A stretch of 64,000 nt of DNA. It comes from a virus. Numbering within the stretch: position 1 is the stretch's first letter; each line of letters begins with the position of its first letter. This document shows positions 3,964-36,501 of this stretch, in pieces. Where the stretch lies: IMG/VR virus record IMGVR_UViG_3300045988_121434, positions 32,001 to 96,000 of that record. One strand, 5' to 3'. Both the position numbers and the translations under genes were made by a program. Under the pieces are notes generated by a model. The model saw only the letters and a list, made by a program, of their open reading frames with translations. It searched no databases and was not told the origin of the DNA.

Positions 3964-4098
3964 ATGACTGACATTAAGATTTCGGTGCATCCGTTTGGCC
4001 ATAAGCTCGAATGGCGAGGATGGGGGGGTAACTTCTCGCCTGCTCTACGAGCCACCGACTACAAATGCCCTCACTGTATAATGATTGAATATGACTAA
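3964..4098 (+). CDS. C5-MTase TRD-like micro-ORF A1 (44 aa)
   Basis: MTDIKISVHPFGHKLEWRGWGGNFSPALRATDYKCPHCIMIEYD. It has an SPALRA..K loop typical of C5-MTase TRDs and contains a G7 tract. Its stop overlaps the next ATG (GAATATGACTAA). Confidence 0.6.
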   Translation: MTDIKISVHPFGHKLEWRGWGGNFSPALRATDYKCPHCIMIEYD

Positions 4099-4225
4099 GC
4101 AACACCCATTCGATGATTTTCATCAGCGCATTCATTGGGACGGCAACTCCATCGGAACCGTTACCCAGCAATGGGGCAATCCTGCGCCGAGGCACGGATG
4201 GCGAATAATGACAGAATATGATTAA
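4091..4225 (+). CDS. C5-MTase TRD-like micro-ORF A2 (44 aa)
   Basis: ...DGNSIGTVTQQWGNPAPRHGWRIMTEYD, ending at the junction GAATATGATTAA. Confidence 0.5.
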   Translation: MTKQHPFDDFHQRIHWDGNSIGTVTQQWGNPAPRHGWRIMTEYD

Positions 4226-4547
4226 CCCTCACACGCCCCGCTACAAGCGCGGCACCATCACCAAGGACGGCAAGCTATACGGACGCTATCCCGACGGTTC
4301 GCTCTACCGCATCTACTCCACCTCTGACCGACCCTTCCTTCAGATTGTTGACCGCAAGGGCGAGACGTTCCTTCGCATACGCCAAGCCACCGAGCAGGGC
4401 TATACCGACTGCCCTTGCCCTGGTGCTGCCGACCTCAGCTATTCCTCCTCGGCTCTAAGGCGCAGCAGGACGGTTGGGGGGGGGGGTAAGCTGGTGAACG
4501 CTCTGACCGCAGCAAGCGGAGGGGCGTGCGTGTTTGTTGAATTATGA
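4218..4547 (+). CDS. C5-MTase TRD-like ORF A3 (109 aa)
   Basis: ...LSYSSSALRRSRTVGGGGKLVNALTAASGGACVFVEL. The GGGG is encoded by a G11 tract (4476-4486). The ORF ends VEL-TGA, overlapping an ATG. Confidence 0.6.
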   Translation: MINPHTPRYKRGTITKDGKLYGRYPDGSLYRIYSTSDRPFLQIVDRKGETFLRIRQATEQGYTDCPCPGAADLSYSSSALRRSRTVGGGGKLVNALTAASGGACVFVEL

Positions 4548-4554
4548 CTTGAAT

Positions 4555-4731
4555 ATGCTTAGAGCAAAGGCAATATCAATAATGGTGAAAAAGGTGGAGC
4601 AGACCATGGTGTTTCAGAACATGCAAGCCAAAGGTCTGATAACGCCTCGCTCGCTTGATGGCGAATGTTTTACTCTTACGTCTGCAATGGGATTAGGGGG
4701 GGCAAACGCCTGTAATAGTAAAGGTATATGA
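4555..4731 (+). CDS. C5-MTase TRD-like micro-ORF A4, C-terminus out of canonical frame at a G7 tract
   Basis: ...GECFTLTSAMGLGG, then ANACNSKGI-stop. With 6 instead of 7 G at 4696-4702 it would read LGGQTPVIVKVYD-stop (4735), ending at the canonical junction TATATGACTAA. The track ORF starts at TTG 4534. Confidence 0.5.
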   Translation: MLRAKAISIMVKKVEQTMVFQNMQAKGLITPRSLDGECFTLTSAMGLGGANACNSKGI

Positions 4732-4859
4732 CTAAATACGACCTCTACCAATATCCTCGTGGCTACAACGACGGAGGTAGATTAGGCACTGACGTTTGCC
4801 CGACCTTGACAATCAATTCGTGGCAGCAAAATGTATTTCTGATTGAAGAATATGAATAA
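4728..4859 (+). CDS. C5-MTase TRD-like micro-ORF A5 (43 aa)
   Basis: MTKYDLYQYPRGYNDGGRLGTDVCPTLTINSWQQNVFLIEEYE. It has a CPTLT loop and ends at the junction GAATATGAATAA. Confidence 0.65.
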   Translation: MTKYDLYQYPRGYNDGGRLGTDVCPTLTINSWQQNVFLIEEYE

Positions 4860-4871
4860 AGCAAAGACAAT

Positions 4872-6200
4872 ATGATCACAAAACTCAATTTCACCGACCG
4901 CACCATCAAGAGCTATGCTATCCGTAAGCTCACGCCAAAGGAGTGTTTCCGCTTGATGGGCGTTCGCGACAACGTAATCGGCACGATGCAGAGCAGCAAT
5001 GCCCAAGCAGCCGAACGTTTGCCCGACTGGAAGGGCAAGGGCAAACCCGAAGACATGGCTATATCTGCCTCACAGCAGTACAAGCAAGCCGGAAACTCAA
5101 TCGTGGTGGACGTGTTGGCCCACATCTACGAGCAACTTTTCTATCCCGCACCGCCCAAGCCCCGCAAGCAGGAACAGCTCACGCTCTTCGCCGACCTTGA
5201 TGACTCGCTGCCCGCCATGCCACCAACAGCCGGAGAACGTGGTAAGGAAAATCTTTTCCTCACCACGTTCTCCGGCTACGACTCGCAGCTCATGGCAGCC
5301 GACGTGCTATGCGAGTGGCATCCCGACTTCCGATGGACATGCGTAGGATGGAGCGACATCGACAAATACGCCTGTCAGATGCACAACCTCGTCTTCCCTC
5401 AGTTTGCCGACTGCGCCCTTGGCGACATCACCAAGATTGACTGGCATGAGGTGAAACGCTCGCTCCATGGGCGCGAGGTTGACATCTTCACCTATTCCTC
5501 GCCTTGCCAGGACATCAGCCAAGCCGGAAAGCAAATGGGACTGAAAGAGGGCAGCGACACACGAAGCGCCCTGCTTTGGCGAGTGGCAGATGCCGTGGAG
5601 GTGTTGCGCCCGAAATATCTCTTGCAGGAGAACGTGGCGGCACTGGTAAGCTCGAAGTTCATGCCCGACTTTCAGAAGTGGCTCGACAAACTCTCCTCGC
5701 TCGGCTATGTGAGCCGTTGGGCGCGACTCAACGCAAAGAACTATGGTGTGCCACAAAACCGCGATCGTGTGTTCTGCATTTCCATGCGCAAAGACGTAGC
5801 CTTCGACTATCAGTTTCCCGAACCCTTCGAGCTGCGCACCCGACTGGAGGACGTGTTGGAAAATGAGGTAGCCGACCGTTATTTCCTAAAAGACGATGCC
5901 GTGAGCAAGTTTCTCAAGGCTAACGACTCCGACAACGCCCTATTCATGCAGTTCGACCTGCCACCGACACACGAGGCAGCGATGTTCCTCAAGACCGTGC
6001 TTCAGATATTCATGGAGCGTCACGACGGATGGGACGAAGGCATTGAGTGGAACGAGAAGGAGCTGAGCTATCGTCGCCCAACCATCGCCCGTCTCTACGA
6101 AAAGTTCAAGGAGAACCCAAAGAAACTGGACGTGGAATATTGGCGCGGCTTTTACAAGATGTTTAAGGAGAATATGGAGAGGAATAAGGATGCGAACTGA
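4872..6200 (+). CDS. circularly permuted DNA (cytosine-5)-methyltransferase catalytic core
   Basis: Motifs appear in the order IX (IRKLTPKECFRLMGV), X (QAGNSIVVDVL), Pro-rich linker, I (LFLTTFSGYDSQ), II (WSDIDKYA), IV (SSPCQDIS), VI (LLQENV), VIII (GVPQNRDRVF). The tail is the usual start of the variable region (LEDVLENEVADRYFL). Confidence 0.9.
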   Translation: MITKLNFTDRTIKSYAIRKLTPKECFRLMGVRDNVIGTMQSSNAQAAERLPDWKGKGKPEDMAISASQQYKQAGNSIVVDVLAHIYEQLFYPAPPKPRKQEQLTLFADLDDSLPAMPPTAGERGKENLFLTTFSGYDSQLMAADVLCEWHPDFRWTCVGWSDIDKYACQMHNLVFPQFADCALGDITKIDWHEVKRSLHGREVDIFTYSSPCQDISQAGKQMGLKEGSDTRSALLWRVADAVEVLRPKYLLQENVAALVSSKFMPDFQKWLDKLSSLGYVSRWARLNAKNYGVPQNRDRVFCISMRKDVAFDYQFPEPFELRTRLEDVLENEVADRYFLKDDAVSKFLKANDSDNALFMQFDLPPTHEAAMFLKTVLQIFMERHDGWDEGIEWNEKELSYRRPTIARLYEKFKENPKKLDVEYWRGFYKMFKENMERNKDAN

Positions 6201-6381
6201 CAACCCACCCGACCGTGTAATCCATATCATAGCTGATATGATTATGGGTGGCAGGTTGCTCACCTGCCCTGCCTCGATGTTCAGTGCAGAACGCTGCAAC
6301 GGAGCCTTTCACGGCATAGCAATAACCATCATGTCGCGCACCGATTGCAGCGACGTGTTCTTTGTAGCAGTAGAATTATGA
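6190..6381 (+). CDS. C5-MTase TRD-like micro-ORF B1 (63 aa)
   Basis: ...NGAFHGIAITIMSRTDCSDVFFVAVEL. The GIAIT loop resembles the HhaI-type loop. The start overlaps the core stop, and the ORF ends VEL-TGA overlapping an ATG. Confidence 0.55.
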   Translation: MRTDNPPDRVIHIIADMIMGGRLLTCPASMFSAERCNGAFHGIAITIMSRTDCSDVFFVAVEL

Positions 6382-6526
6382 AGAAAACCAACCCGTGTCA
6401 CGCAATACAAAATGGGGGGGTACGATTGCGCCTGCAATTACTTCCCACTATTTTAAGGCTGGTGTGCGAGACTTCCTCTTTGCCCTTGCCATACCACATT
6501 GTTGTTTGATAGTAGAATATGAATAA
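6378..6526 (+). CDS. C5-MTase TRD-like micro-ORF B2, frame broken at a G7 tract
   Basis: The ATG frame reads MKKTNPCHAIQNGG. With 8 instead of 7 G at 6414-6420 it continues GTIAPAITSHYFKAGVRDFLFALAIPHCCLIVEYE-stop at the junction GAATATGAATAA. Confidence 0.45.
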
Positions 6527-6671
6527 CAACCCTCGCCCTATCATCCTCGGCTCTTACAGTCCCTCGCAGAACGGCATCATCGTGTCACCACACGGCATAG
6601 CCTTGTGCATAGCCGGGGGAGGTAAGGGTCACGATGTGGATAAACCGAAAATACTGATAGAGTATGACTGA
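6519..6671 (+). CDS. C5-MTase TRD-like micro-ORF B3 (50 aa)
   Basis: MNNNPRPIILGSYSPSQNGIIVSPHGIALCIAGGGKGHDVDKPKILIEYD, ending at the junction GAGTATGACTGA. Confidence 0.65.
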   Translation: MNNNPRPIILGSYSPSQNGIIVSPHGIALCIAGGGKGHDVDKPKILIEYD

Positions 6672-6843
6672 CAAGTATTACATTGGCTGGGTACGCAGCG
6701 GCAAGGACGGCAAGGGCCTCGTAAAGAGCAGACCGCGCAAGCAGATAGCCAATGCCGTGACGACAATGGTCGGAAGAGGTATTGCCGACCCTCGCGACGG
6801 ACTCGGCAACACCACACCGCATATAGTATATGAATTTGAGTAA
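6664..6843 (+). CDS. C5-MTase TRD-like micro-ORF B4 (59 aa)
   Basis: ...RKQIANAVTTMVGRGIADPRDGLGNTTPHIVYEFE. Confidence 0.55.
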   Translation: MTDKYYIGWVRSGKDGKGLVKSRPRKQIANAVTTMVGRGIADPRDGLGNTTPHIVYEFE

Positions 6844-6860
6844 CCCATAAAACAAAAAAA

Positions 6861-7241
6861 ATGGAAAAAGACAAAAACGTAGAGATAGGCCGTGCTCTCG
6901 CCAATTTTGATATGGCCTGTCGCAATTTGGTCAACCTTGTCAACGACCAACTCTTCGAGACCTCCCGCTCACCCTACTGGGTAGCCGACGAGGTAGGAGG
7001 CATCTGCGACTTCGGCGATACCGACTTCCTCACGCCCGAAGAAATGGTGCTCATTCTCGAACACGGCGTCAGCTACGACGACTATGTAGAGTGGCGCGAA
7101 GCCAACATCAAGTATGGCGACACCAAAGGCTACATCAAACTCAAGTCATGGCTCCGCGGATGCCGACACGACCGTGTGGAGGGTGCAAATACCAAGACAA
7201 ACTGCATCGCCCCAGTCCGTGGCCGTGGAGTAATTCGATAA
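6861..7241 (+). CDS. hypothetical protein (126 aa) embedded in the TRD array
   Basis: ORF with a non-TRD-like N-terminal 100 aa. Its 3' end overlaps a cryptic TRD-like frame (7148..7285). Confidence 0.5.
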   Translation: MEKDKNVEIGRALANFDMACRNLVNLVNDQLFETSRSPYWVADEVGGICDFGDTDFLTPEEMVLILEHGVSYDDYVEWREANIKYGDTKGYIKLKSWLRGCRHDRVEGANTKTNCIAPVRGRGVIR

Positions 7242-7266
7242 CAACAGTAACAAAAGACAACCTCCT

Positions 7267-7440
7267 ATGCTACACTTTCGCATAGCAGCCTTTCGAGGCC
7301 GTGACCCCGACAATCCGTCCGACCGCAAGCATCCCTCCTGCGGTCGTTTCCGTCAGCGCATGGAGATAAATGCGTTGGGTACGACCAACACGCTTACGTC
7401 AGTAGGCAAGGATAATATGGCATATATAGAGTATGAATAA
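7267..7440 (+). CDS. C5-MTase TRD-like micro-ORF B5 (57 aa)
   Basis: MLHFRIAAFRGRDPDNPSDRKHPSCGRFRQRMEINALGTTNTLTSVGKDNMAYIEYE. It shows the RGR...NTLTSVxKDN TRD pattern and ends at the junction GAGTATGAATAA. Confidence 0.65.
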   Translation: MLHFRIAAFRGRDPDNPSDRKHPSCGRFRQRMEINALGTTNTLTSVGKDNMAYIEYE

Positions 7441-7582
7441 TCAAACCCCATTCGTGCAACGCCTCTCTCGCCTCTGCCCACGTCGGGGGTACTCCACCGC
7501 CCTGTCCGCACGCTACGACGGATGGGCAGGGCTCTACGACGAGCACGGACAGCACACCATTGTATTGATAGAGTATGAATAA
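7433..7582 (+). CDS. C5-MTase TRD-like micro-ORF B6 (49 aa)
   Basis: ...RGYSTALSARYDGWAGLYDEHGQHTIVLIEYE. The TALSARY loop resembles the Dcm/EcoRII-type TLSARY loop. Confidence 0.6.
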   Translation: MNNQTPFVQRLSRLCPRRGYSTALSARYDGWAGLYDEHGQHTIVLIEYE

Positions 7583-7715
7583 GTACATACAAAATTGTCC
7601 GTCAGGTATCTGTTGCGTTCTGACCTCTCATTACGCAAGAGAAGGATGGGCGAACATAGCAAGCAATACAACATCACAATGCAAAGCACCCACAATATTG
7701 ATAGAGTATGAATAA
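7575..7715 (+). CDS. C5-MTase TRD-like micro-ORF B7 (46 aa)
   Basis: MNKYIQNCPSGICCVLTSHYAREGWANIASNTTSQCKAPTILIEYE. The VLTSHYxxxG loop is similar to that of B2. Confidence 0.55.
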   Translation: MNKYIQNCPSGICCVLTSHYAREGWANIASNTTSQCKAPTILIEYE

Positions 7716-8202
7716 AAATGTAACAAACCCCATAAAAACAACAGAGACAATGAAACCAGAAGAAAACAACCGTATGGAGGCACTTGCCTACATCATAGCC
7801 GACCTAAAGGCAGAGAACATAGAGCTGGTGCAGCGTGTGCATCAGCTTGTGGAGGATTACAACGACGTAGCACGTCAGTTGCGTGGAATGGAGAAGCGTA
7901 AGGACGAAGACCAGTCAAGGCAGACGCTCGGCGAAATGATGCAGATGCGCGACCATTGCGACAAACTGGAGGTTGAAAACAACAATTTGAAGACGTGCTT
8001 GATAGCAGTCAGCTCGTTTCTGCGAGACAAAAATCTGTATATGGCTAATGGCACATTATGTTCTTATGGGTCTGGCAATCCAGAAGTATGTCCTGAGTAC
8101 TGCAAAAAATGTAACTCCTACCTAAGTACTTTAAAGGATGTTGGTGTGGTTTGCAGCAGAAGACTTGCAGAAGCTTCCGTAATTTTTGCGAAGAGTAAAT
8201 GA
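7708..8202 (+). CDS. hypothetical coiled-coil / Cys-rich protein (164 aa) embedded in the TRD array
   Basis: The ORF starts at a canonical array junction ATG. It has a central heptad-like region and C-terminal CxxxC / CxxC pairs. Confidence 0.5.
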   Translation: MNKNVTNPIKTTETMKPEENNRMEALAYIIADLKAENIELVQRVHQLVEDYNDVARQLRGMEKRKDEDQSRQTLGEMMQMRDHCDKLEVENNNLKTCLIAVSSFLRDKNLYMANGTLCSYGSGNPEVCPEYCKKCNSYLSTLKDVGVVCSRRLAEASVIFAKSK

Positions 8203-8360
8203 CACCAACAAAAACCCTCGTAGTCGGCATGATGCAGACGCCACCCTATGACCGCATGTTTGAGCAGAGCCGCCGCGTGTACTCCGCTCAGGGAATATCG
8301 CCCACGCTGCATACACAAGGGGGGGGTGATAGAGAGATTAAGGTATTGGTGGAGCTGTAA
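8199..8360 (+). CDS. C5-MTase TRD-like micro-ORF B8 (53 aa)
   Basis: MTPTKTLVVGMMQTPPYDRMFEQSRRVYSAQGISPTLHTQGGGDREIKVLVEL. It shows the classic RVYSxxGxSPTL..GGG pattern, with GGG encoded in a G8 tract. Confidence 0.7.
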   Translation: MTPTKTLVVGMMQTPPYDRMFEQSRRVYSAQGISPTLHTQGGGDREIKVLVEL

Positions 8361-10609: not shown

Positions 10610-10667
10610 CGATACGCTCCAACTATAGACTTATGGAACATTCAACTATTGGATTGACTTTTTTATT

Positions 10668-11051
10668 TTGGCCGTGGCGCTTTTTGCTATCACGCACCTC
10701 TATTGCGTGTGCAGAGTTTTCAGAAACAAGCGATCACCGCTTCATCAGCAGCAGTTTGCTTCGCCCACGCCGCCTGCACCATGGAACACAAGAGCCGAGC
10801 AAGACCTAACGGGGAATAATGACCCGTGGTATCTTGTTGTGTATGCCGATGTGAACGAAAGAAACTACACAGTTGTTGCAGCAGAGGATATTCTGGATTT
10901 TCAGTTCAGCGGCAAAAGAGGAGAAATGAGAATCCACTGCAAGAAATACAACGGTTTCCCCGACAACACTATGAACTTTGAAAACATACACCATTATGAG
11001 TTTCAGCAGGCTTCGCAGCTTGGAGATTTTTGTTTAGAAGGAAAGGAATGA
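10668..11051 (+). CDS. paralogue of 10214..10609; start uncertain
   Basis: It shares the DPWYLVVY core. The frame has only a TTG start. An upstream ATG at 10633 would join this frame if the T6 tract at 10659-10664 were T7. Confidence 0.45.
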   Translation: MAVALFAITHLYCVCRVFRNKRSPLHQQQFASPTPPAPWNTRAEQDLTGNNDPWYLVVYADVNERNYTVVAAEDILDFQFSGKRGEMRIHCKKYNGFPDNTMNFENIHHYEFQQASQLGDFCLEGKE

Positions 11052-15383: not shown

Positions 15384-15803
15384 TTACATTTTGAATTGTT
15401 TTTTCAAGAAAGTGTTGCTTTTAATAAGCTCTATCATTTCCTCCTCGGAGTGTATTCCTTCCCAAAATACTTCAGTATGCGACCCACGCCTTTCATCATC
15501 TACGGAGAACGGCACGGCATAGTTGGTATATACAACACCGTGATGTTTTATCAAGTGACGACCTGGATTCTTGTAGATGTTATTGATCCACGTCTCGTTG
15601 TCACATTCAGTCCATATTTTACATTCTTTGTGGGTAAGATTTTTGTCGATACCCATAGGATAGTGACCTGCCTTGCCGTTACTTTTGTTCCGAAATAAAT
15701 GATCTTTGCCATATCGTGATTGTTTTATAATTCGCCAAAGTCCAGTTTCATCTGTTGGAATTTCTCGGCATACCATTGTTTGTATGATTTGCCCGAAATC
15801 CAC
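15384..15803 (-). CDS. hypothetical protein (up to 139 aa; start uncertain)
   Basis: The ORF overlaps the 3' end of the upstream gene by 79 nt if the first ATG is used. Internal ATGs are available. Confidence 0.4.
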   Translation of the reverse strand: MDFGQIIQTMVCREIPTDETGLWRIIKQSRYGKDHLFRNKSNGKAGHYPMGIDKNLTHKECKIWTECDNETWINNIYKNPGRHLIKHHGVVYTNYAVPFSVDDERRGSHTEVFWEGIHSEEEMIELIKSNTFLKKQFKM

Positions 15804-16882
15804 CAGTCGTAGATATTTTCCGCTATTTCGTTTTCTTGCTCCTCCGTCAAGCGGTCAGAAGAGGAGCTGGACGAAAACCCTGGGGCTGCGATATTCCGTA
15901 CACCTCTGTTTTGTCTCCAATGTTCCGGGTCTGGATGTTTGATGTAGCCGCCTGTGTCCTGAGCAATCCTCTGACGTTTCTGAGAGGCATCCAGTCCTTG
16001 CGGATGTTCCACCAAATATATTCTCTTTTGAATACCCCCCCCGTTTCGGATAGCCTTAATAGCCTTTATCCAGTTGCGCTTGATATGCGGATAGCGTTCA
16101 TTCTCGATGCGTTTCTGCTTTGCAGACGACATAGGGCAGCCGATGCAGCCGATGCGATGCCATCCCTCGTCGTAGAGCGAGCAATGCGGAACCTTCACCA
16201 CATCGTTAAGAAACTCCCATACGTCCTTTTCCGTCCAATAAATGATGGGTGAAATAAGCAGACTCTCTTTGCCGTGGATGCAGCTTAATGTCTGTTCTTC
16301 ATCAGCATTAGTGATATTCACGCCTTGCTCCTTGGATTTACGGCGAGCACGTTTAGCCTTCAGCTCCTGACGATATTCGTCCAGACCGTCAAGATTGCCA
16401 CTAAACTTTCGGTTATTTATTTCTACCTCATTTCGTTTGGCTCGGCGTGCGCTCTCTGCCTTGCGGATGCCGATTAGCGTTACCTTGCCAGCACCTGCCG
16501 TTTCCTTATATTCAGCGCAACACCAGCGCACACGCATAGTGGGCAGAATCTGCTTTTCTACGGCAATCTGAAAGATAGATTTGCCAGGCTTTAGCAGTTC
16601 CACCTCGGGATAGTTCTTCTTAACGAAACGTATCACTTCGGGTGGATCAACGCTCGTAAGATTCATGTGACCGCGAAATTTCACCCCCGCCAACTGAGTC
16701 ATGTGGAAAAGAGCTTGAGAATCCTTTCCACCACTAAACGCCAAGTAATATCCATTCTCGGCATCATAGTTGAGGGCTATCTTCTCTGCTTTTTGCAGCA
16801 GCTCCACCGAGTGAAGCATCTTTTTTCGCAGTCCTTCCGAAGCTCGCTCCAATGCTTCGGCAAGCGTAATGTCTATATTCAT
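15725..16882 (-). CDS. PP-loop ATP pyrophosphatase / PAPS-reductase-family protein (IbrA-like, with Cys-rich C-terminal extension)
   Basis: It has the SGGKDS PP-loop (YLAFSGGKDSQ) and later RIGCIGCPM. It contains a G8 tract on the coding strand (plus-strand C8 at 16035-16042). Confidence 0.7.
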   Translation of the reverse strand: MNIDITLAEALERASEGLRKKMLHSVELLQKAEKIALNYDAENGYYLAFSGGKDSQALFHMTQLAGVKFRGHMNLTSVDPPEVIRFVKKNYPEVELLKPGKSIFQIAVEKQILPTMRVRWCCAEYKETAGAGKVTLIGIRKAESARRAKRNEVEINNRKFSGNLDGLDEYRQELKAKRARRKSKEQGVNITNADEEQTLSCIHGKESLLISPIIYWTEKDVWEFLNDVVKVPHCSLYDEGWHRIGCIGCPMSSAKQKRIENERYPHIKRNWIKAIKAIRNGGGIQKRIYLVEHPQGLDASQKRQRIAQDTGGYIKHPDPEHWRQNRGVRNIAAPGFSSSSSSDRLTEEQENEIAENIYDWWISGKSYKQWYAEKFQQMKLDFGEL

Positions 16883-35547: not shown

Positions 35548-36501
35548 ATGGAACTACGACATTTGCGCTCCTTTGTTTTTGTGGCGGAAACAAAGTCGTT
35601 CAGTATCGCCGCCACCCGATGTTGCGTAACCCAATCGGCAGTAAGCCAGCATATCCGGGCATTGGAAGATGAATTAGGTTGCAAACTACTTATTCGTACC
35701 TCGCACGAAATCAACCTTACAGAGAGTGGCGAAGCTCTCTTGCCAAGGGCTAAGGACATCATCAAGCAGACAGAGGACTGCAAGGAACAAATTAATGCGC
35801 TTAACAACTGCATGATTGGTGAACTGCGTATAGGTATTGGCTCTTTCATCGCTCCTTACGTCAGAATGGCTGCACTCATTTTTATGGAGCGATACCCTAA
35901 CGTGCGTATCAATGCCGATTTCACAAAGGCGCATATCCTTAACAAAACGCTCCGTGCGCACATGATAGACCTCGCCTTTACCATGAACACGGCATATAGC
36001 CACGAGGGTATAGAGTCGCAGCCGTGCATACCATTCTCCGTGTATGCCATTATGCGTGATACCCATCCGCTTTCCTGTTTACCGAAAGTGTCGTATGAGG
36101 ATTTGTTGAAACACCCGGTCATAATGCCCGATGTTGGTGAGCGTGTGTTTGAAACCTGTCAGCAATACATACAGCGCGACCTGTATAAATTGAATATAAA
36201 ATGTGTGATAAGCGACCCCGATGAAGCACTTGCATCCGTGGAAGAAACGAAATGTGTTACGTTCATGACACAGCTCTATTTGCGCCACCACCCTACACTT
36301 GTGGCTCGCCCTATCGTGGGACTTGAACGCCAACTGATGAGTAATGCCCACTGGATGAAGGATGTTCCTATAAAGCGGTCAGCGCAAATTTTCTTGGATA
36401 TAATAAAGAATGAAGTAGTGCCTTATATTTCTGTTATCGAAGAGACGAAAGGCACTTTTACCCCCCCCCCGATAGATATTAGCAATTCTGCCTCACGCTA
36501 A
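35548..36501 (+). CDS. LysR-family transcriptional regulator
   Basis: The N-terminal wHTH is MELRHLRSFVFVAETKSFSIAATRCCVTQSAVSQHIRALEDELG. A ~200-aa substrate-binding-type domain follows. A C10 tract lies at 36461-36470 near the 3' end. Confidence 0.9.
   Translation: MELRHLRSFVFVAETKSFSIAATRCCVTQSAVSQHIRALEDELGCKLLIRTSHEINLTESGEALLPRAKDIIKQTEDCKEQINALNNCMIGELRIGIGSFIAPYVRMAALIFMERYPNVRINADFTKAHILNKTLRAHMIDLAFTMNTAYSHEGIESQPCIPFSVYAIMRDTHPLSCLPKVSYEDLLKHPVIMPDVGERVFETCQQYIQRDLYKLNIKCVISDPDEALASVEETKCVTFMTQLYLRHHPTLVARPIVGLERQLMSNAHWMKDVPIKRSAQIFLDIIKNEVVPYISVIEETKGTFTPPPIDISNSASR

What the first reader, a model, noticed from the sequence alone, without database searches (positions are those of the whole stretch)
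4022..8326. Long poly-G tracts concentrated in the TRD cassettes; two cassettes are out of frame exactly at a G7 tract
Seen: five of the seven G/C homopolymers of 7 nt or longer that I found in the 64 kb lie in this 4.4-kb locus. They are G7 at 4022-4028 (A1), G11 at 4476-4486 (A3), G7 at 4696-4702 (A4), G7 at 6414-6420 (B2) and G8 at 8319-8326 (B8). There are also G5 tracts in B3 (6615-6619) and B6 (7485-7489). They encode the Gly-Gly(-Gly) that follows the recognition loop, whereas GGC appeared by eye to be the more common Gly codon in the genes I read elsewhere. A4 reaches its canonical ..VIVKVYD-stop junction only with 6 G. B2 reaches ..CLIVEYE-stop only with 8 G. Inference: slipped-strand length variation could switch individual specificities on and off, as in contingency loci. 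The alternative is homopolymer sequencing error. A T6 tract at 10659-10664 also looks one base short for a neighbouring gene, which makes the error explanation a real possibility.
Basis: partly seen in the sequence, partly recalled or inferred. Interest (0 to 1): 0.6.

Follow-up and report, generated by a model that had tools for sequence, protein, structure and literature searches.

The report
Hypermutable poly-G switches in phage methylase cassettes
A gut phage carries about a dozen tiny genes that each give a shared DNA methylase a different target sequence, and runs of G inside them gain or lose single bases so readily that closely related phages have different cassettes switched on or off, probably a bet-hedging defence against bacterial restriction enzymes.

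Summary
Five of the window's seven G/C homopolymers of 7 nt or longer lie in 4022-8326. All five are G on the coding strand of small target-recognition-domain (TRD) ORFs that flank a TRD-less, circularly permuted C5-methyltransferase core (4872-6200). A1 (G7), A3 (G11) and B8 (G8) are in frame. A4 (G7) and B2 (G7) are out of frame at the tract.

Comparison with 80 related phage loci gives a contingency-locus signature:
- G4-5 tracts are in frame in 201 of 215 cases; G6 or longer in only 49 of 135.
- Two loci with no substitutions over 13.3 kb differ only at four G/C tracts.
- 19 of 34 G/C tracts of 7 nt or longer differ between near-identical pairs, against 3 of 29 A/T tracts.
- GGG is the first codon of 41% of Gly-Gly pairs in cassettes, against 2.5% in other genes.
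- Cassettes are under purifying selection (dN/dS 0.16).
- A G7 tract inside the core is invariant in 11 of 11 loci.

Sequencing error is therefore unlikely to be the main cause, but no reads were available. That switching changes methylation specificity is inferred, not shown. Verdict: a real, new variant of SSR phase variation, sitting in what looks like a split multispecific phage methyltransferase.

The parts
3964..4098 (+). TRD cassette A1 (44 aa, ends ..IMIEYD). G7 tract at 4022-4028 encodes GWGG. In frame (ON).
   Evidence: Orthologues carry G4, G6, G7, G8, G10 or G11; G8 is the commonest and gives an immediate TAA stop.
4091..4225 (+). TRD cassette A2 (44 aa). No long G tract. Its ATG overlaps the A1 stop (tATGa).
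4218..4547 (+). TRD cassette A3 (109 aa, ends ..VFVEL). G11 tract at 4476-4486 encodes VGGGGK. In frame (ON).
   Evidence: L081, otherwise identical, has G10, which is OFF. Orthologues carry G6-G9. Truncated OFF forms are abundant in the public protein collection.
4555..4735 (+). TRD cassette A4. G7 tract at 4696-4702. Out of frame (OFF): as read it stops at the TGA at 4729-4731. It needs G6 or G9 to reach ..VIVKVYD-TAA at 4735.
4728..4859 (+). TRD cassette A5 (43 aa, ..CPTLTINSWQQNVFLIEEYE). No tract.
4872..6200 (+). C5-cytosine methyltransferase core. Circularly permuted (motifs IX-X, then I-VIII). It has no TRD of its own.
   Evidence: PF00145 at 2e-51, matched in two stretches. Motif order read from the translation. 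The de-permuted construct without a cassette still leaves the profile gap.
6190..6381 (+). TRD cassette B1 (63 aa, ends ..VAVEL).
6378..6526 (+). TRD cassette B2. G7 tract at 6414-6420. Out of frame (OFF): the ATG at 6378 reads to a stop at 6509. It needs G8 to reach ..CLIVEYE-TAA at 6526. A GTG at 6395 is a possible alternative start in the downstream frame.
6519..6671 (+). TRD cassette B3 (50 aa). G5 at 6615-6619 encodes AGGGK. ON.
   Evidence: Orthologues carry G6-G10 at this site.
6664..6843 (+). TRD cassette B4 (59 aa, ends ..IVYEFE).
7267..7440 (+). TRD cassette B5 (57 aa).
7433..7582 (+). TRD cassette B6 (49 aa). G5 at 7485-7489. ON.
   Evidence: Orthologues carry G6-G9.
7575..7715 (+). 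TRD cassette B7 (46 aa).
8199..8360 (+). TRD cassette B8 (53 aa, ..GISPTLHTQGGGDREIKVLVEL). G8 tract at 8319-8326. ON.
   Evidence: Aligns to the M.MpeI TRD segment GIGPTLTASGAN. Public homologues show ON forms and two out-of-frame tails that start at the Gly run.

Best explanation
The poly-G tracts are real simple-sequence contingency switches.

Where they sit. They lie in the Gly-rich DNA-contact loops of stand-alone TRD mini-genes (43-109 aa). These genes are chained by overlapping stop/start junctions (tATGa) on both sides of a TRD-less, circularly permuted C5-methyltransferase core. The phage is about 93 kb, siphovirus-like, from the human gut, and probably infects Prevotella.

What is shown. 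The tracts gain and lose single G residues far faster than the surrounding sequence changes. Each +/-1 change moves the cassette ORF between a full-length form with the canonical ..EY(D/E)/..VEL end (ON) and a truncated form (OFF). In this window A1, A3 and B8 are ON, and A4 and B2 are OFF.

What is inferred. The change arises by slipped-strand mispairing during phage DNA replication. Each TRD peptide docks in trans between the C- and N-termini of the permuted core and gives it one target specificity. The set of ON cassettes then decides which motifs the phage methylates. Phage populations would thus hedge between protection from classical restriction-modification systems and avoidance of methylation-dependent restriction, or of competition among TRDs for the core.
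For: Enrichment.
- 5 tracts where 0.155 are expected (P = 6.5e-7).
- In 585 intact cassettes from 81 loci there are 65 G runs of 7 nt or longer. Back-translating the same proteins with background codon usage gives 2.4 on average (maximum 7).
- GGG is the first codon of 41% of Gly-Gly pairs in cassettes, against 2.5% in other genes.

Instability.
- G4: 75 ON / 9 OFF. G5: 126 / 5. G6: 4 / 21. G7: 12 / 27. G8: 30 / 25. G9: 1 / 11. Fisher p = 1.6e-31.
- Every OFF allele counted is restored by a single +/-1 G.
- L041 and L042 have 0 mismatches in 13,314 nt and 4 indels, all in G/C homopolymers. These switch A1- and A3-type cassettes from ON to OFF.
- All 4 indels between L001 and L002 are in cassette G tracts.
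- The window and L081 have 0 mismatches over 12.1 kb and differ only by G11 versus G10.
- In near-identical pairs, 19 of 34 G/C tracts of 7 nt or longer differ (6 of 6 at 9 nt or longer), against 3 of 29 A/T tracts and 0 of 10 G/C6 tracts.

Selection controls.
- Cassette dN/dS is 0.16, against 1.4 in the +1 frame.
- A G7 tract inside the core gene is G7 in all 11 loci that have it, and the core ORF is full-length in 10 of them.

Independent assemblies.
- B8 and A3 homologues from ENA, Logan and NCBI assemblies include many clusters that diverge exactly after the Gly run. Examples are P0186 (593 member sequences), P0170 (348) and P0172 (326).

TRD identity.
- The construct core(I-VIII) + cassette + core(IX-X) gives one continuous PF00145 match over profile positions 23-322, at 192.9 bits. 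Without a cassette the score is 177.1 bits in two stretches.
- B8 aligns to the TL region of the M.MpeI TRD.

Prevalence and precedents.
- 55 of 70 loci with full flanks carry at least one tract-frameshifted cassette.
- Poly-G tracts are known in Fletchervirus receptor-binding genes and in a BPP-1 methylase gene, and contingency loci in T2/T4 (PMC12633550).
- C5-methyltransferases that work as two polypeptides or as complementing fragments are known (PMC3404938).
Against: - No read-level data, so heterogeneity within one phage population is not shown.
- The longest tract (G11/G10) is in a range where short-read consensus calls can be unreliable.
- The ON fraction for tracts of 6 nt or longer (36%) is close to the 1/3 expected if tract length drifts without selection. 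Adaptive switching is therefore not shown and is hard to tell apart from tolerated loss.
- Some B2-type cassettes are out of frame with interrupted tracts (L005, L011), which looks like decay or use of an alternative start.
- The window has one non-G/C frameshift in an ordinary gene near 10659.
- Action of the TRD peptides in trans, and any specificity change, are untested.
Confidence: 0.65

Rival explanations
1. Homopolymer sequencing or assembly error. The true phage has one tract length per site with every cassette in frame, and the differences among records are consensus mistakes.
For: - The window and L081 differ only by G11 versus G10.
- The window has a one-base deficit near the T6 tract at 10659 relative to its relatives.
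- Reads could not be inspected.
Against: - Frame loss begins at G6-G7, lengths that short-read consensus normally resolves.
- G5 tracts are stable: 126 ON against 5 OFF.
- A/T tracts of equal length rarely differ: 3 of 29, against 19 of 34 for G/C.
- The G7 tract in the core is invariant in 11 of 11 loci.
- The same OFF forms recur in records with SPAdes-style scaffold, MEGAHIT-style k141 and Logan contig names.
- L081 agrees with the window on the out-of-frame G7 at 4696 and 6414.
- Error cannot explain the GGG codon bias, 41% against 2.5%.
Confidence: 0.1
2. Tolerated decay, with no adaptive switching. The tracts really are mutable, but they are a mutational by-product in redundant, individually dispensable cassettes, and OFF alleles are simply loss-of-function variants on the way to pseudogenes.
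For: - The ON fraction of tracts of 6 nt or longer is 49 of 135, close to the neutral 1/3.
- Some cassettes are locked out of frame with interrupted tracts (L005, L011).
- Deletion derivatives that lack the whole core exist.
Against: - The cassettes show strong purifying selection (dN/dS 0.16).
- The OFF alleles counted carry no second lesion and are restored by +/-1 G.
- Uninterrupted tracts are about 27-fold over-represented relative to synonymous expectation. Any GGA, GGT or GGC substitution would stabilise them at no protein cost.
- Tracts persist in lineages whose cores are only about 70% identical.
Confidence: 0.2
3. Expression-level recoding. RNA polymerase slippage or ribosomal frameshifting on the G run yields full-length TRD from genomically out-of-frame alleles, so tract length tunes dosage rather than switching ON/OFF.
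For: - Homopolymers are known slippage sites for polymerases (general knowledge).
- In some cassettes both neighbouring tract lengths give ORFs with canonical ends from different starts. An example is L071 position 7511 (G7) versus L075 position 7510 (G8).
Against: - No conserved frameshift stimulator was looked for or seen.
- Known bacterial transcriptional slippage mainly uses A/T runs (general knowledge).
- This mechanism would not explain the DNA-level length polymorphism, which is observed directly.
Confidence: 0.05

Closest known systems
Poly-G tracts in Fletchervirus (Campylobacter phage) receptor-binding genes; Sorensen et al. 2021, as cited in PMC12633550 and PMC12823448
   Same: - Phage-encoded G7-G11 homopolymers inside ORFs.
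- +/-1 slippage gives ON/OFF subpopulations.
- Several tracts per genome.
   Different: - Those tracts are in receptor-binding proteins and affect adsorption.
- Here they sit in methyltransferase target-recognition mini-genes of a gut siphovirus-like phage, and would affect epigenetic protection rather than host recognition.
Contingency loci in T2/T4 and other phages, and the poly-G tract noted in a methylase gene of Bordetella phage BPP-1 (PMC12633550)
   Same: - Homopolymer repeats in phage genes produce reversible frameshifts as bet-hedging against host defence.
- BPP-1 is a single precedent for a poly-G tract in a phage methylase gene.
   Different: - The T-even loci are mostly A/T runs in single genes such as agt and rIIA.
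- The BPP-1 tract was not studied further.
- Here up to about five tracts per genome are concentrated in an array of interchangeable specificity modules.
Bacterial phase-variable methyltransferases: phasevarions such as Mod genes with repeats, and Campylobacter Type IIG cj0031 with poly-G (PMC4889913, PMC6902483)
   Same: Repeat-mediated ON/OFF switching of DNA methylation specificity.
   Different: - Those switch a whole enzyme, or one HsdS or Mod allele, in a bacterial chromosome and act on gene regulation or defence.
- Here the switch acts on separate TRD peptides of a phage C5 enzyme. In most lineages the catalytic core carries no variable tract.
Multispecific C5-methyltransferases of Bacillus phages (SPR, phi3T, rho11s, H2; from my own knowledge of the Trautner-group literature)
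   Same: - One catalytic framework serves several TRDs of about 40-50 aa, each with its own target.
- A phage anti-restriction role.
   Different: - Those TRDs are fused in tandem inside one polypeptide and are not phase-variable.
- Here each TRD is its own ORF, the core has none, and many carry hypermutable tracts.
Two-polypeptide and permuted C5-methyltransferases (M.AquI, M.EcoHK31I, fragment complementation: PMC3404938; engineered circular permutants: PMC5944983; M.BssHII from my own knowledge)
   Same: - C5 enzymes tolerate splitting in or near the variable region.
- They tolerate the IX-X-I-VIII motif order.
   Different: - Known natural cases have one fixed partner.
- None has an array of about 10-15 alternative TRD-only peptides.

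Membership tests
SSR contingency locus (phase-variable gene) | A homopolymer or short repeat lies inside the ORF (or promoter), at a length above the slippage threshold | tested here: met
   G7, G11, G7, G7 and G8 lie inside cassette ORFs.
SSR contingency locus (phase-variable gene) | Repeat length is polymorphic in steps that are not multiples of 3 among otherwise near-identical genomes | tested here: met
   - L041/L042: 0 mismatches, 4 tract indels.
- L001/L002, L054/L055 and window/L081 show the same pattern.
- 19 of 34 G/C tracts of 7 nt or longer differ in near-identical pairs.
SSR contingency locus (phase-variable gene) | A length change toggles the reading frame, and OFF alleles have no other lesion (reversible in principle) | tested here: met
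   86 OFF alleles are each restored by +/-1 G, and G4-5 controls are 93% ON.
SSR contingency locus (phase-variable gene) | Length heterogeneity within a clonal population, with a measured high switching rate | not testable with these tools
   No reads or cultures. The G11/G10 difference between the window and L081 is suggestive only.
SSR contingency locus (phase-variable gene) | The repeat is maintained beyond what the protein sequence and codon usage require | tested here: met
   - 65 G runs of 7 nt or longer observed, 2.4 simulated.
- GGG first in 41% of Gly-Gly pairs, against 2.5% elsewhere.
C5-methyltransferase target recognition domain | The sequence fills the gap between motif VIII and motif IX and carries the conserved T-[LIV] element | tested here: met
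   - The de-permuted core plus cassette gives a single PF00145 match over positions 23-322 and gains 7-16 bits.
- B8 aligns to the M.MpeI segment GPTLTASGAN.
- T-L-like motifs are visible in all cassettes.
C5-methyltransferase target recognition domain | It confers sequence-specific methylation | not testable with these tools
   Needs expression and m5C mapping.
Multispecific phage C5-methyltransferase (SPR/phi3T type) | Several TRDs lie in tandem within one polypeptide, between motifs VIII and IX | tested here: not met
   - Each TRD is a separate ORF with its own ATG and stop.
- The core has no TRD.
- Homologues of B8 and A3 in the 5.8-billion-protein collection are all 47-154 aa and none carries a precomputed Pfam domain, so none appears to be embedded in a methylase.
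- The in-frame A5-TAA-core arrangement is not conserved.
Phasevarion (phase-variable regulatory methyltransferase) | A bacterial methyltransferase whose switching changes host gene expression | not tested
   The element is phage-borne: it has a tape-measure protein, a head protease and a tail fibre. A regulatory role was not examined.

The most novel reading that the evidence does not exclude
A phage-encoded methylation system that is variable in combinations. One TRD-less, circularly permuted C5-methyltransferase core is served in trans by 10-15 stand-alone TRD mini-proteins drawn from a pool of about 26 families. Many of these carry their own poly-G switch, so a single phage lineage continuously generates up to 2^n different methylation repertoires as bet-hedging against both classical and methylation-dependent restriction. 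The stop/start/stop junction (TATGANTAA) would reset the reading frame after each cassette, so that one OFF cassette does not silence the next.
Probability: 0.45. Interest if true: 0.85.

Novelty: new variant of a known kind. Interest (0 to 1): 0.72.

Why it matters
If true, phages use localised hypermutation to vary their epigenetic armour, not only their receptor-binding proteins. They would do so one specificity module at a time, which is a new layer in the contest between restriction systems and phages.

The locus would also be a natural, modular test bed for C5-methyltransferase specificity. It offers dozens of 45-60 aa TRDs that may work with one common core, which could be useful for engineering targeted methylation.

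Practically, gene callers and assemblers will mis-annotate or break these loci. The second record of this phage (L081) has a 100-N gap across the B cassettes. Consensus genomes also hide the real population state.

Tried and rejected
- Stop-codon readthrough fusing a cassette to the core. In the window A5 is in frame with the core across a single TAA (..EYE*SKDNMITKL). In relatives the spacer length changes the frame (L016 versus L024). Rejected as a conserved mechanism.
- The tracts as a mere by-product of Gly-Gly-Gly coding. Rejected by the back-translation simulation and the codon counts.
- Generic homopolymer error. A/T tracts and G5-G6 tracts are stable in near-identical pairs.
- Near matches in cultured-phage GenBank records. 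None for the locus DNA. The core protein has only hits below 60% identity, to ordinary methylases.
- Literature searches for this architecture, or for phase-variable phage TRDs. They found only the precedents cited and no description of this system.
- AlphaFold model of a cassette-core fusion.
- Pfam scans of single cassettes. No hits, because they are too short. The de-permuted constructs were needed.


Full report
**1. Observation**

The tracts are G7 4022-4028, G11 4476-4486, G7 4696-4702, G7 6414-6420 and G8 8319-8326, with G5 at 6615-6619 and 7485-7489. The only other G/C runs of 7 nt or longer in 64 kb are C8 at 16035-16042 and C10 at 36461-36470. First-order Markov simulations expect 2.3 G runs of 7 nt or longer per 64 kb and 0.155 in this locus. 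Poisson P(>=5) is 6.5e-7, and no simulated 4.4-kb stretch held more than three. All five tracts are G on the coding strand.

**2. Anatomy**

The ORF at 4872-6200 is a C5-cytosine methyltransferase (PF00145, 2e-51).
- Its motif order is IX-X (..RKLTPKECFRLMG....QAGNSIVV..) followed by I-VIII (..FSGYD....SSPCQD....QENV....QNRDRVF..). It is therefore circularly permuted, and it has nothing in the position of a target recognition domain.
- On both sides lie 13 mini-ORFs of 43-109 aa (A1-A5, B1-B8). They end in ..(I/V)EY(D/E)-stop or ..VEL-stop, and most are chained by tATGa stop/start overlaps.
- Two non-TRD ORFs lie among the B cassettes, X1 at 6861-7241 and X2 at 7708-8202.

The mini-ORFs are the missing TRDs.
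- I placed a cassette between the core's motif VIII end and its motif IX start. The two-stretch Pfam match (177.1 bits) became one continuous match over profile positions 23-322, at 192.9 bits with B8 and 184.1 bits with repaired A4.
- B8 (..RRVYSAQGISPTLHTQGGG..) aligns to the TRD of M.MpeI (..YVYNINGIGPTLTASGAN..).
- Homologues of B8 and A3 in a 5.8-billion-protein collection are all small stand-alone proteins of 47-154 aa with no precomputed Pfam domain, so none appears to be part of a full-length methylase.

The cassettes are coding and constrained. dN/dS is 0.16 over 2,107 pairs, against 1.4 when the same pairs are read in the +1 frame.

The phage has a tape-measure protein, a head protease and a tail fibre. 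A second record is 93 kb long. MAG bins that contain relatives are mostly labelled Prevotella.

**3. Frames in the window**

- A1 (G7), A3 (G11) and B8 (G8) are intact.
- A4 with G7 ends ..GLGGANACNSKGI at the TGA that overlaps the A5 ATG. G6 or G9 gives ..GLGG(G)QTPVIVKVYD-TAA. Orthologues have 9 nt here.
- B2 from ATG 6378 with G7 terminates at 6509. G8 gives ..NGGGTIAPAITSHYFK..CLIVEYE-TAA at 6526, as in L030 and the interrupted 8-nt versions of L035, L033 and L006.
- One detail needs correcting. The Gly run follows the T-L motif only in A4, B3 and B8, and precedes it in A1, A3, B2 and B6.

**4. Comparative test**

Eighty related loci, with cores 70-95% identical, were fetched from IMG/VR. 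Nearly all carry G tracts in their cassette regions.

Orthologous tracts vary in steps that are not multiples of 3. In the A1 family G4 occurs 6 times, G6 7 times, G7 7 times, G8 16 times, and G10 and G11 once each. Copies interrupted by a synonymous A, T or C keep an in-frame length in nearly all cases; exceptions include two B2-type copies (L005, L011).

I classified every tract by whether the native, -1 or +1 length gives an ATG-to-canonical-end ORF:

| Tract | ON | OFF |
|---|---|---|
| G4 | 75 | 9 |
| G5 | 126 | 5 |
| G6 | 4 | 21 |
| G7 | 12 | 27 |
| G8 | 30 | 25 |
| G9 | 1 | 11 |

The difference between G4-5 and G6 or longer is significant (Fisher p = 1.6e-31).

Near-isogenic pairs are the clearest evidence.
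- L041 and L042 have no substitutions in 13,314 nt and four indels, all in G/C homopolymers. These take the A1- and A3-type cassettes from ON to OFF.
- All four indels between L001 and L002 are in cassette G tracts.
- Over twelve close pairs, 19 of 34 G/C tracts of 7 nt or longer differ (6 of 6 at 9 nt or longer), against 3 of 29 A/T tracts and 0 of 10 G/C6 tracts.

A second assembly record of the window's own phage is L081 (ENA ERZ28569356). It is identical over 12.1 kb except for G10 instead of G11 in A3, which makes A3 OFF there. It agrees on the out-of-frame G7 in A4 and B2.

Across 70 loci with full flanks, the median is 9 intact cassettes and 1 tract-frameshifted cassette. Fifty-five loci have at least one OFF cassette. 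There are about 26 TRD families.

**5. Is it selected or just tolerated?**

GGG is rare in ordinary genes of these phages, at 7% of Gly codons and 2.5% of first codons in Gly-Gly pairs. In cassettes it is the first codon of 41% of Gly-Gly pairs. Intact cassettes contain 65 G runs of 7 nt or longer. Back-translation with background codon usage gives 2.4 on average and 7 at most. The window alone shows the same bias: 10 of 14 against 3 of 76 (p = 4e-8).

A G7 tract inside the core gene of L070-L080 is G7 in all 11 loci, and 10 of the 11 core ORFs are full-length. This argues against random consensus error and for selection keeping the core in frame.

On the other side, the ON fraction of long tracts (36%) is what unconstrained drift of tract length would give. 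Adaptive bet-hedging is therefore the favoured reading, but it is an inference.

**6. Independent confirmation**

Protein clusters from ENA, Logan and NCBI assemblies contain ON forms (..TLHTQGGG[DNH]xEIKVLVEL..RTVGGGKLVNALTAASGG..VFVEL). They also contain many forms that diverge exactly after the Gly run into the two alternative frames (..GGGKSRDKGINRTIKTI..GGVIER..RTVGGVSS..RTVGGGVNW). Some of these clusters have hundreds of member sequences. The record names indicate several assemblers: scaffolds with N gaps, k141 contigs and Logan contigs.

**7. Mechanism**

Shown:
- The tracts are hypermutable in length relative to their surroundings.
- Each +/-1 change toggles a constrained TRD ORF.

Inferred:
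- Slippage occurs during replication.
- TRD peptides complement the core in trans. This is plausible because natural two-polypeptide C5 enzymes and fragment complementation are known (PMC3404938), and because the permutation places both core termini at the TRD site.
- The ON set defines which motifs are methylated.
- The benefit lies in balancing protection from restriction-modification systems against methylation-dependent restriction, or against competition among TRDs for the core.

The junction TATGA(A/C)TAA carries a stop in two frames and the next start in the third. A frameshifted ribosome that reaches the junction therefore usually stops there, as A4 does in the window. This may limit polar effects. 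I did not quantify it.

**8. Rivals**

- Sequencing error (about 0.1) is disfavoured by the length threshold, the G/C specificity, the invariant core tract, agreement between records and the codon bias.
- Tolerated decay without adaptive value (about 0.2) fits the 1/3 ON fraction and a few locked-OFF copies. It does not fit the maintenance of uninterrupted tracts against free synonymous stabilisation.
- Recoding at the RNA or ribosome level (about 0.05) is untested.

**9. Comparison with known systems**

The closest precedents are:
- poly-G tracts in the receptor-binding genes of Campylobacter Fletchervirus phages;
- the T2/T4 contingency loci and the unstudied poly-G tract in a BPP-1 methylase gene (PMC12633550);
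- bacterial phase-variable methyltransferases;
- the multispecific C5 enzymes of Bacillus phages.

This locus fails the defining feature of the last family, because its TRDs are not tandem inside one polypeptide. I found no description of phase-variable, stand-alone TRD cassettes in the searchable literature. I rate it a new variant of a known kind (SSR phase variation), sitting in an architecture that itself appears undescribed.

**10. Verdict**

Interest is 0.72. The decisive experiments are read-level tract counts, and methylome mapping of the core plus individual cassettes.

Noticed in passing
window 4973-4992 and 8219-8238; L089 8102-8121; L090, L091: A 20-nt direct repeat (18 of 20 identical) links the core just after motif IX (..NVIGTMQ) to the start of cassette B8 (..LVVGMMQ). 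Several public contigs carry the exact deletion product, an 80-aa ORF made of core residues 1-38 plus B8 residues 11-53. These contigs lack the whole core and the B cassettes. One of them is a 72.7-kb scaffold with no Ns in the 16.2-kb stretch read around the junction.
   Followed up: partly
L057, L059, L061, L065, L030 near locus position 6062 (core motif IX, ..KLTPPECF..): In one sub-lineage the core gene itself carries a poly-C tract. C8 is in frame (L057, L059). C7 is frameshifted (L061, L065). L030 has C7 plus an inserted A and is also frameshifted. The whole enzyme may be phase-variable there.
   Followed up: partly
window 16035-16042 and 36461-36470: These are the two other long G/C tracts in the window. 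C8 is G8 on the coding (-) strand of a PAPS-reductase-like gene (15725-16882, ..RNGGGIQ..) and is in frame. C10 encodes ..TPPP.. ten residues before the stop of a phrog_3736 gene (35548-36501); +/-1 would change only the C-terminal tail.
   Followed up: partly
window 10633-11051: A small, probably membrane, protein gene is split. Relatives L046 and L036 read MEHSTIGLIVWILAVAL.. through this point, while the window is one base short near the T6 at 10659-10664. L081 has the identical sequence. A TTG at 10668 could start a shortened product.
   Followed up: partly
proteins P0178, P0173, P0183; window cassettes A3, B6, B4: Public assemblies contain chimeric cassettes joined at or beside the G tract: the A3 N-terminal part plus the B6 C-terminal part (in two frames), and A3 plus B4. 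The G runs may act as microhomology for recombination between cassettes, or these may be assembly chimeras.
   Followed up: no
window cassette junctions, e.g. 4090-4098, 4727-4735, 6518-6526, 7432-7440: The junction motif TATGA(A/C)TAA holds TGA, ATG and TAA in the three frames. Upstream ribosomes stop there in two frames, and the third frame is the start of the next cassette. This could act as a frame reset in an array prone to frameshifts.
   Followed up: no
window 4857-4874: A5 is in frame with the core across a single TAA (..EYE*SKDNMITKL..), and a 7-codon mini-ORF (MNKAKTI) bridges them with ATGA overlaps. The in-frame relation is not conserved in relatives.
   Followed up: yes
L081 7839-7938, corresponding to window 6710-7767: The second record of this phage has a 100-N scaffold gap across B4 to X2. 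The repeated cassette junctions evidently break short-read assembly.
   Followed up: yes
L041 11171 / L042 / L039 11636: A C7/C8 tract about 4 kb downstream of the core also varies between otherwise identical loci. Its context (..GCAGCCTACCCCCCCAATTG..) has no counterpart in the window, and its gene was not identified.
   Followed up: no
window 6861-7241 and 7708-8202: Two non-TRD ORFs sit inside the B cassette array. One is a 126-aa protein with no family match. The other is a 164-aa coiled-coil protein with a Cys-rich C-terminus, chained to B7 and B8 by ATGA overlaps. Their roles are unknown.
   Followed up: no
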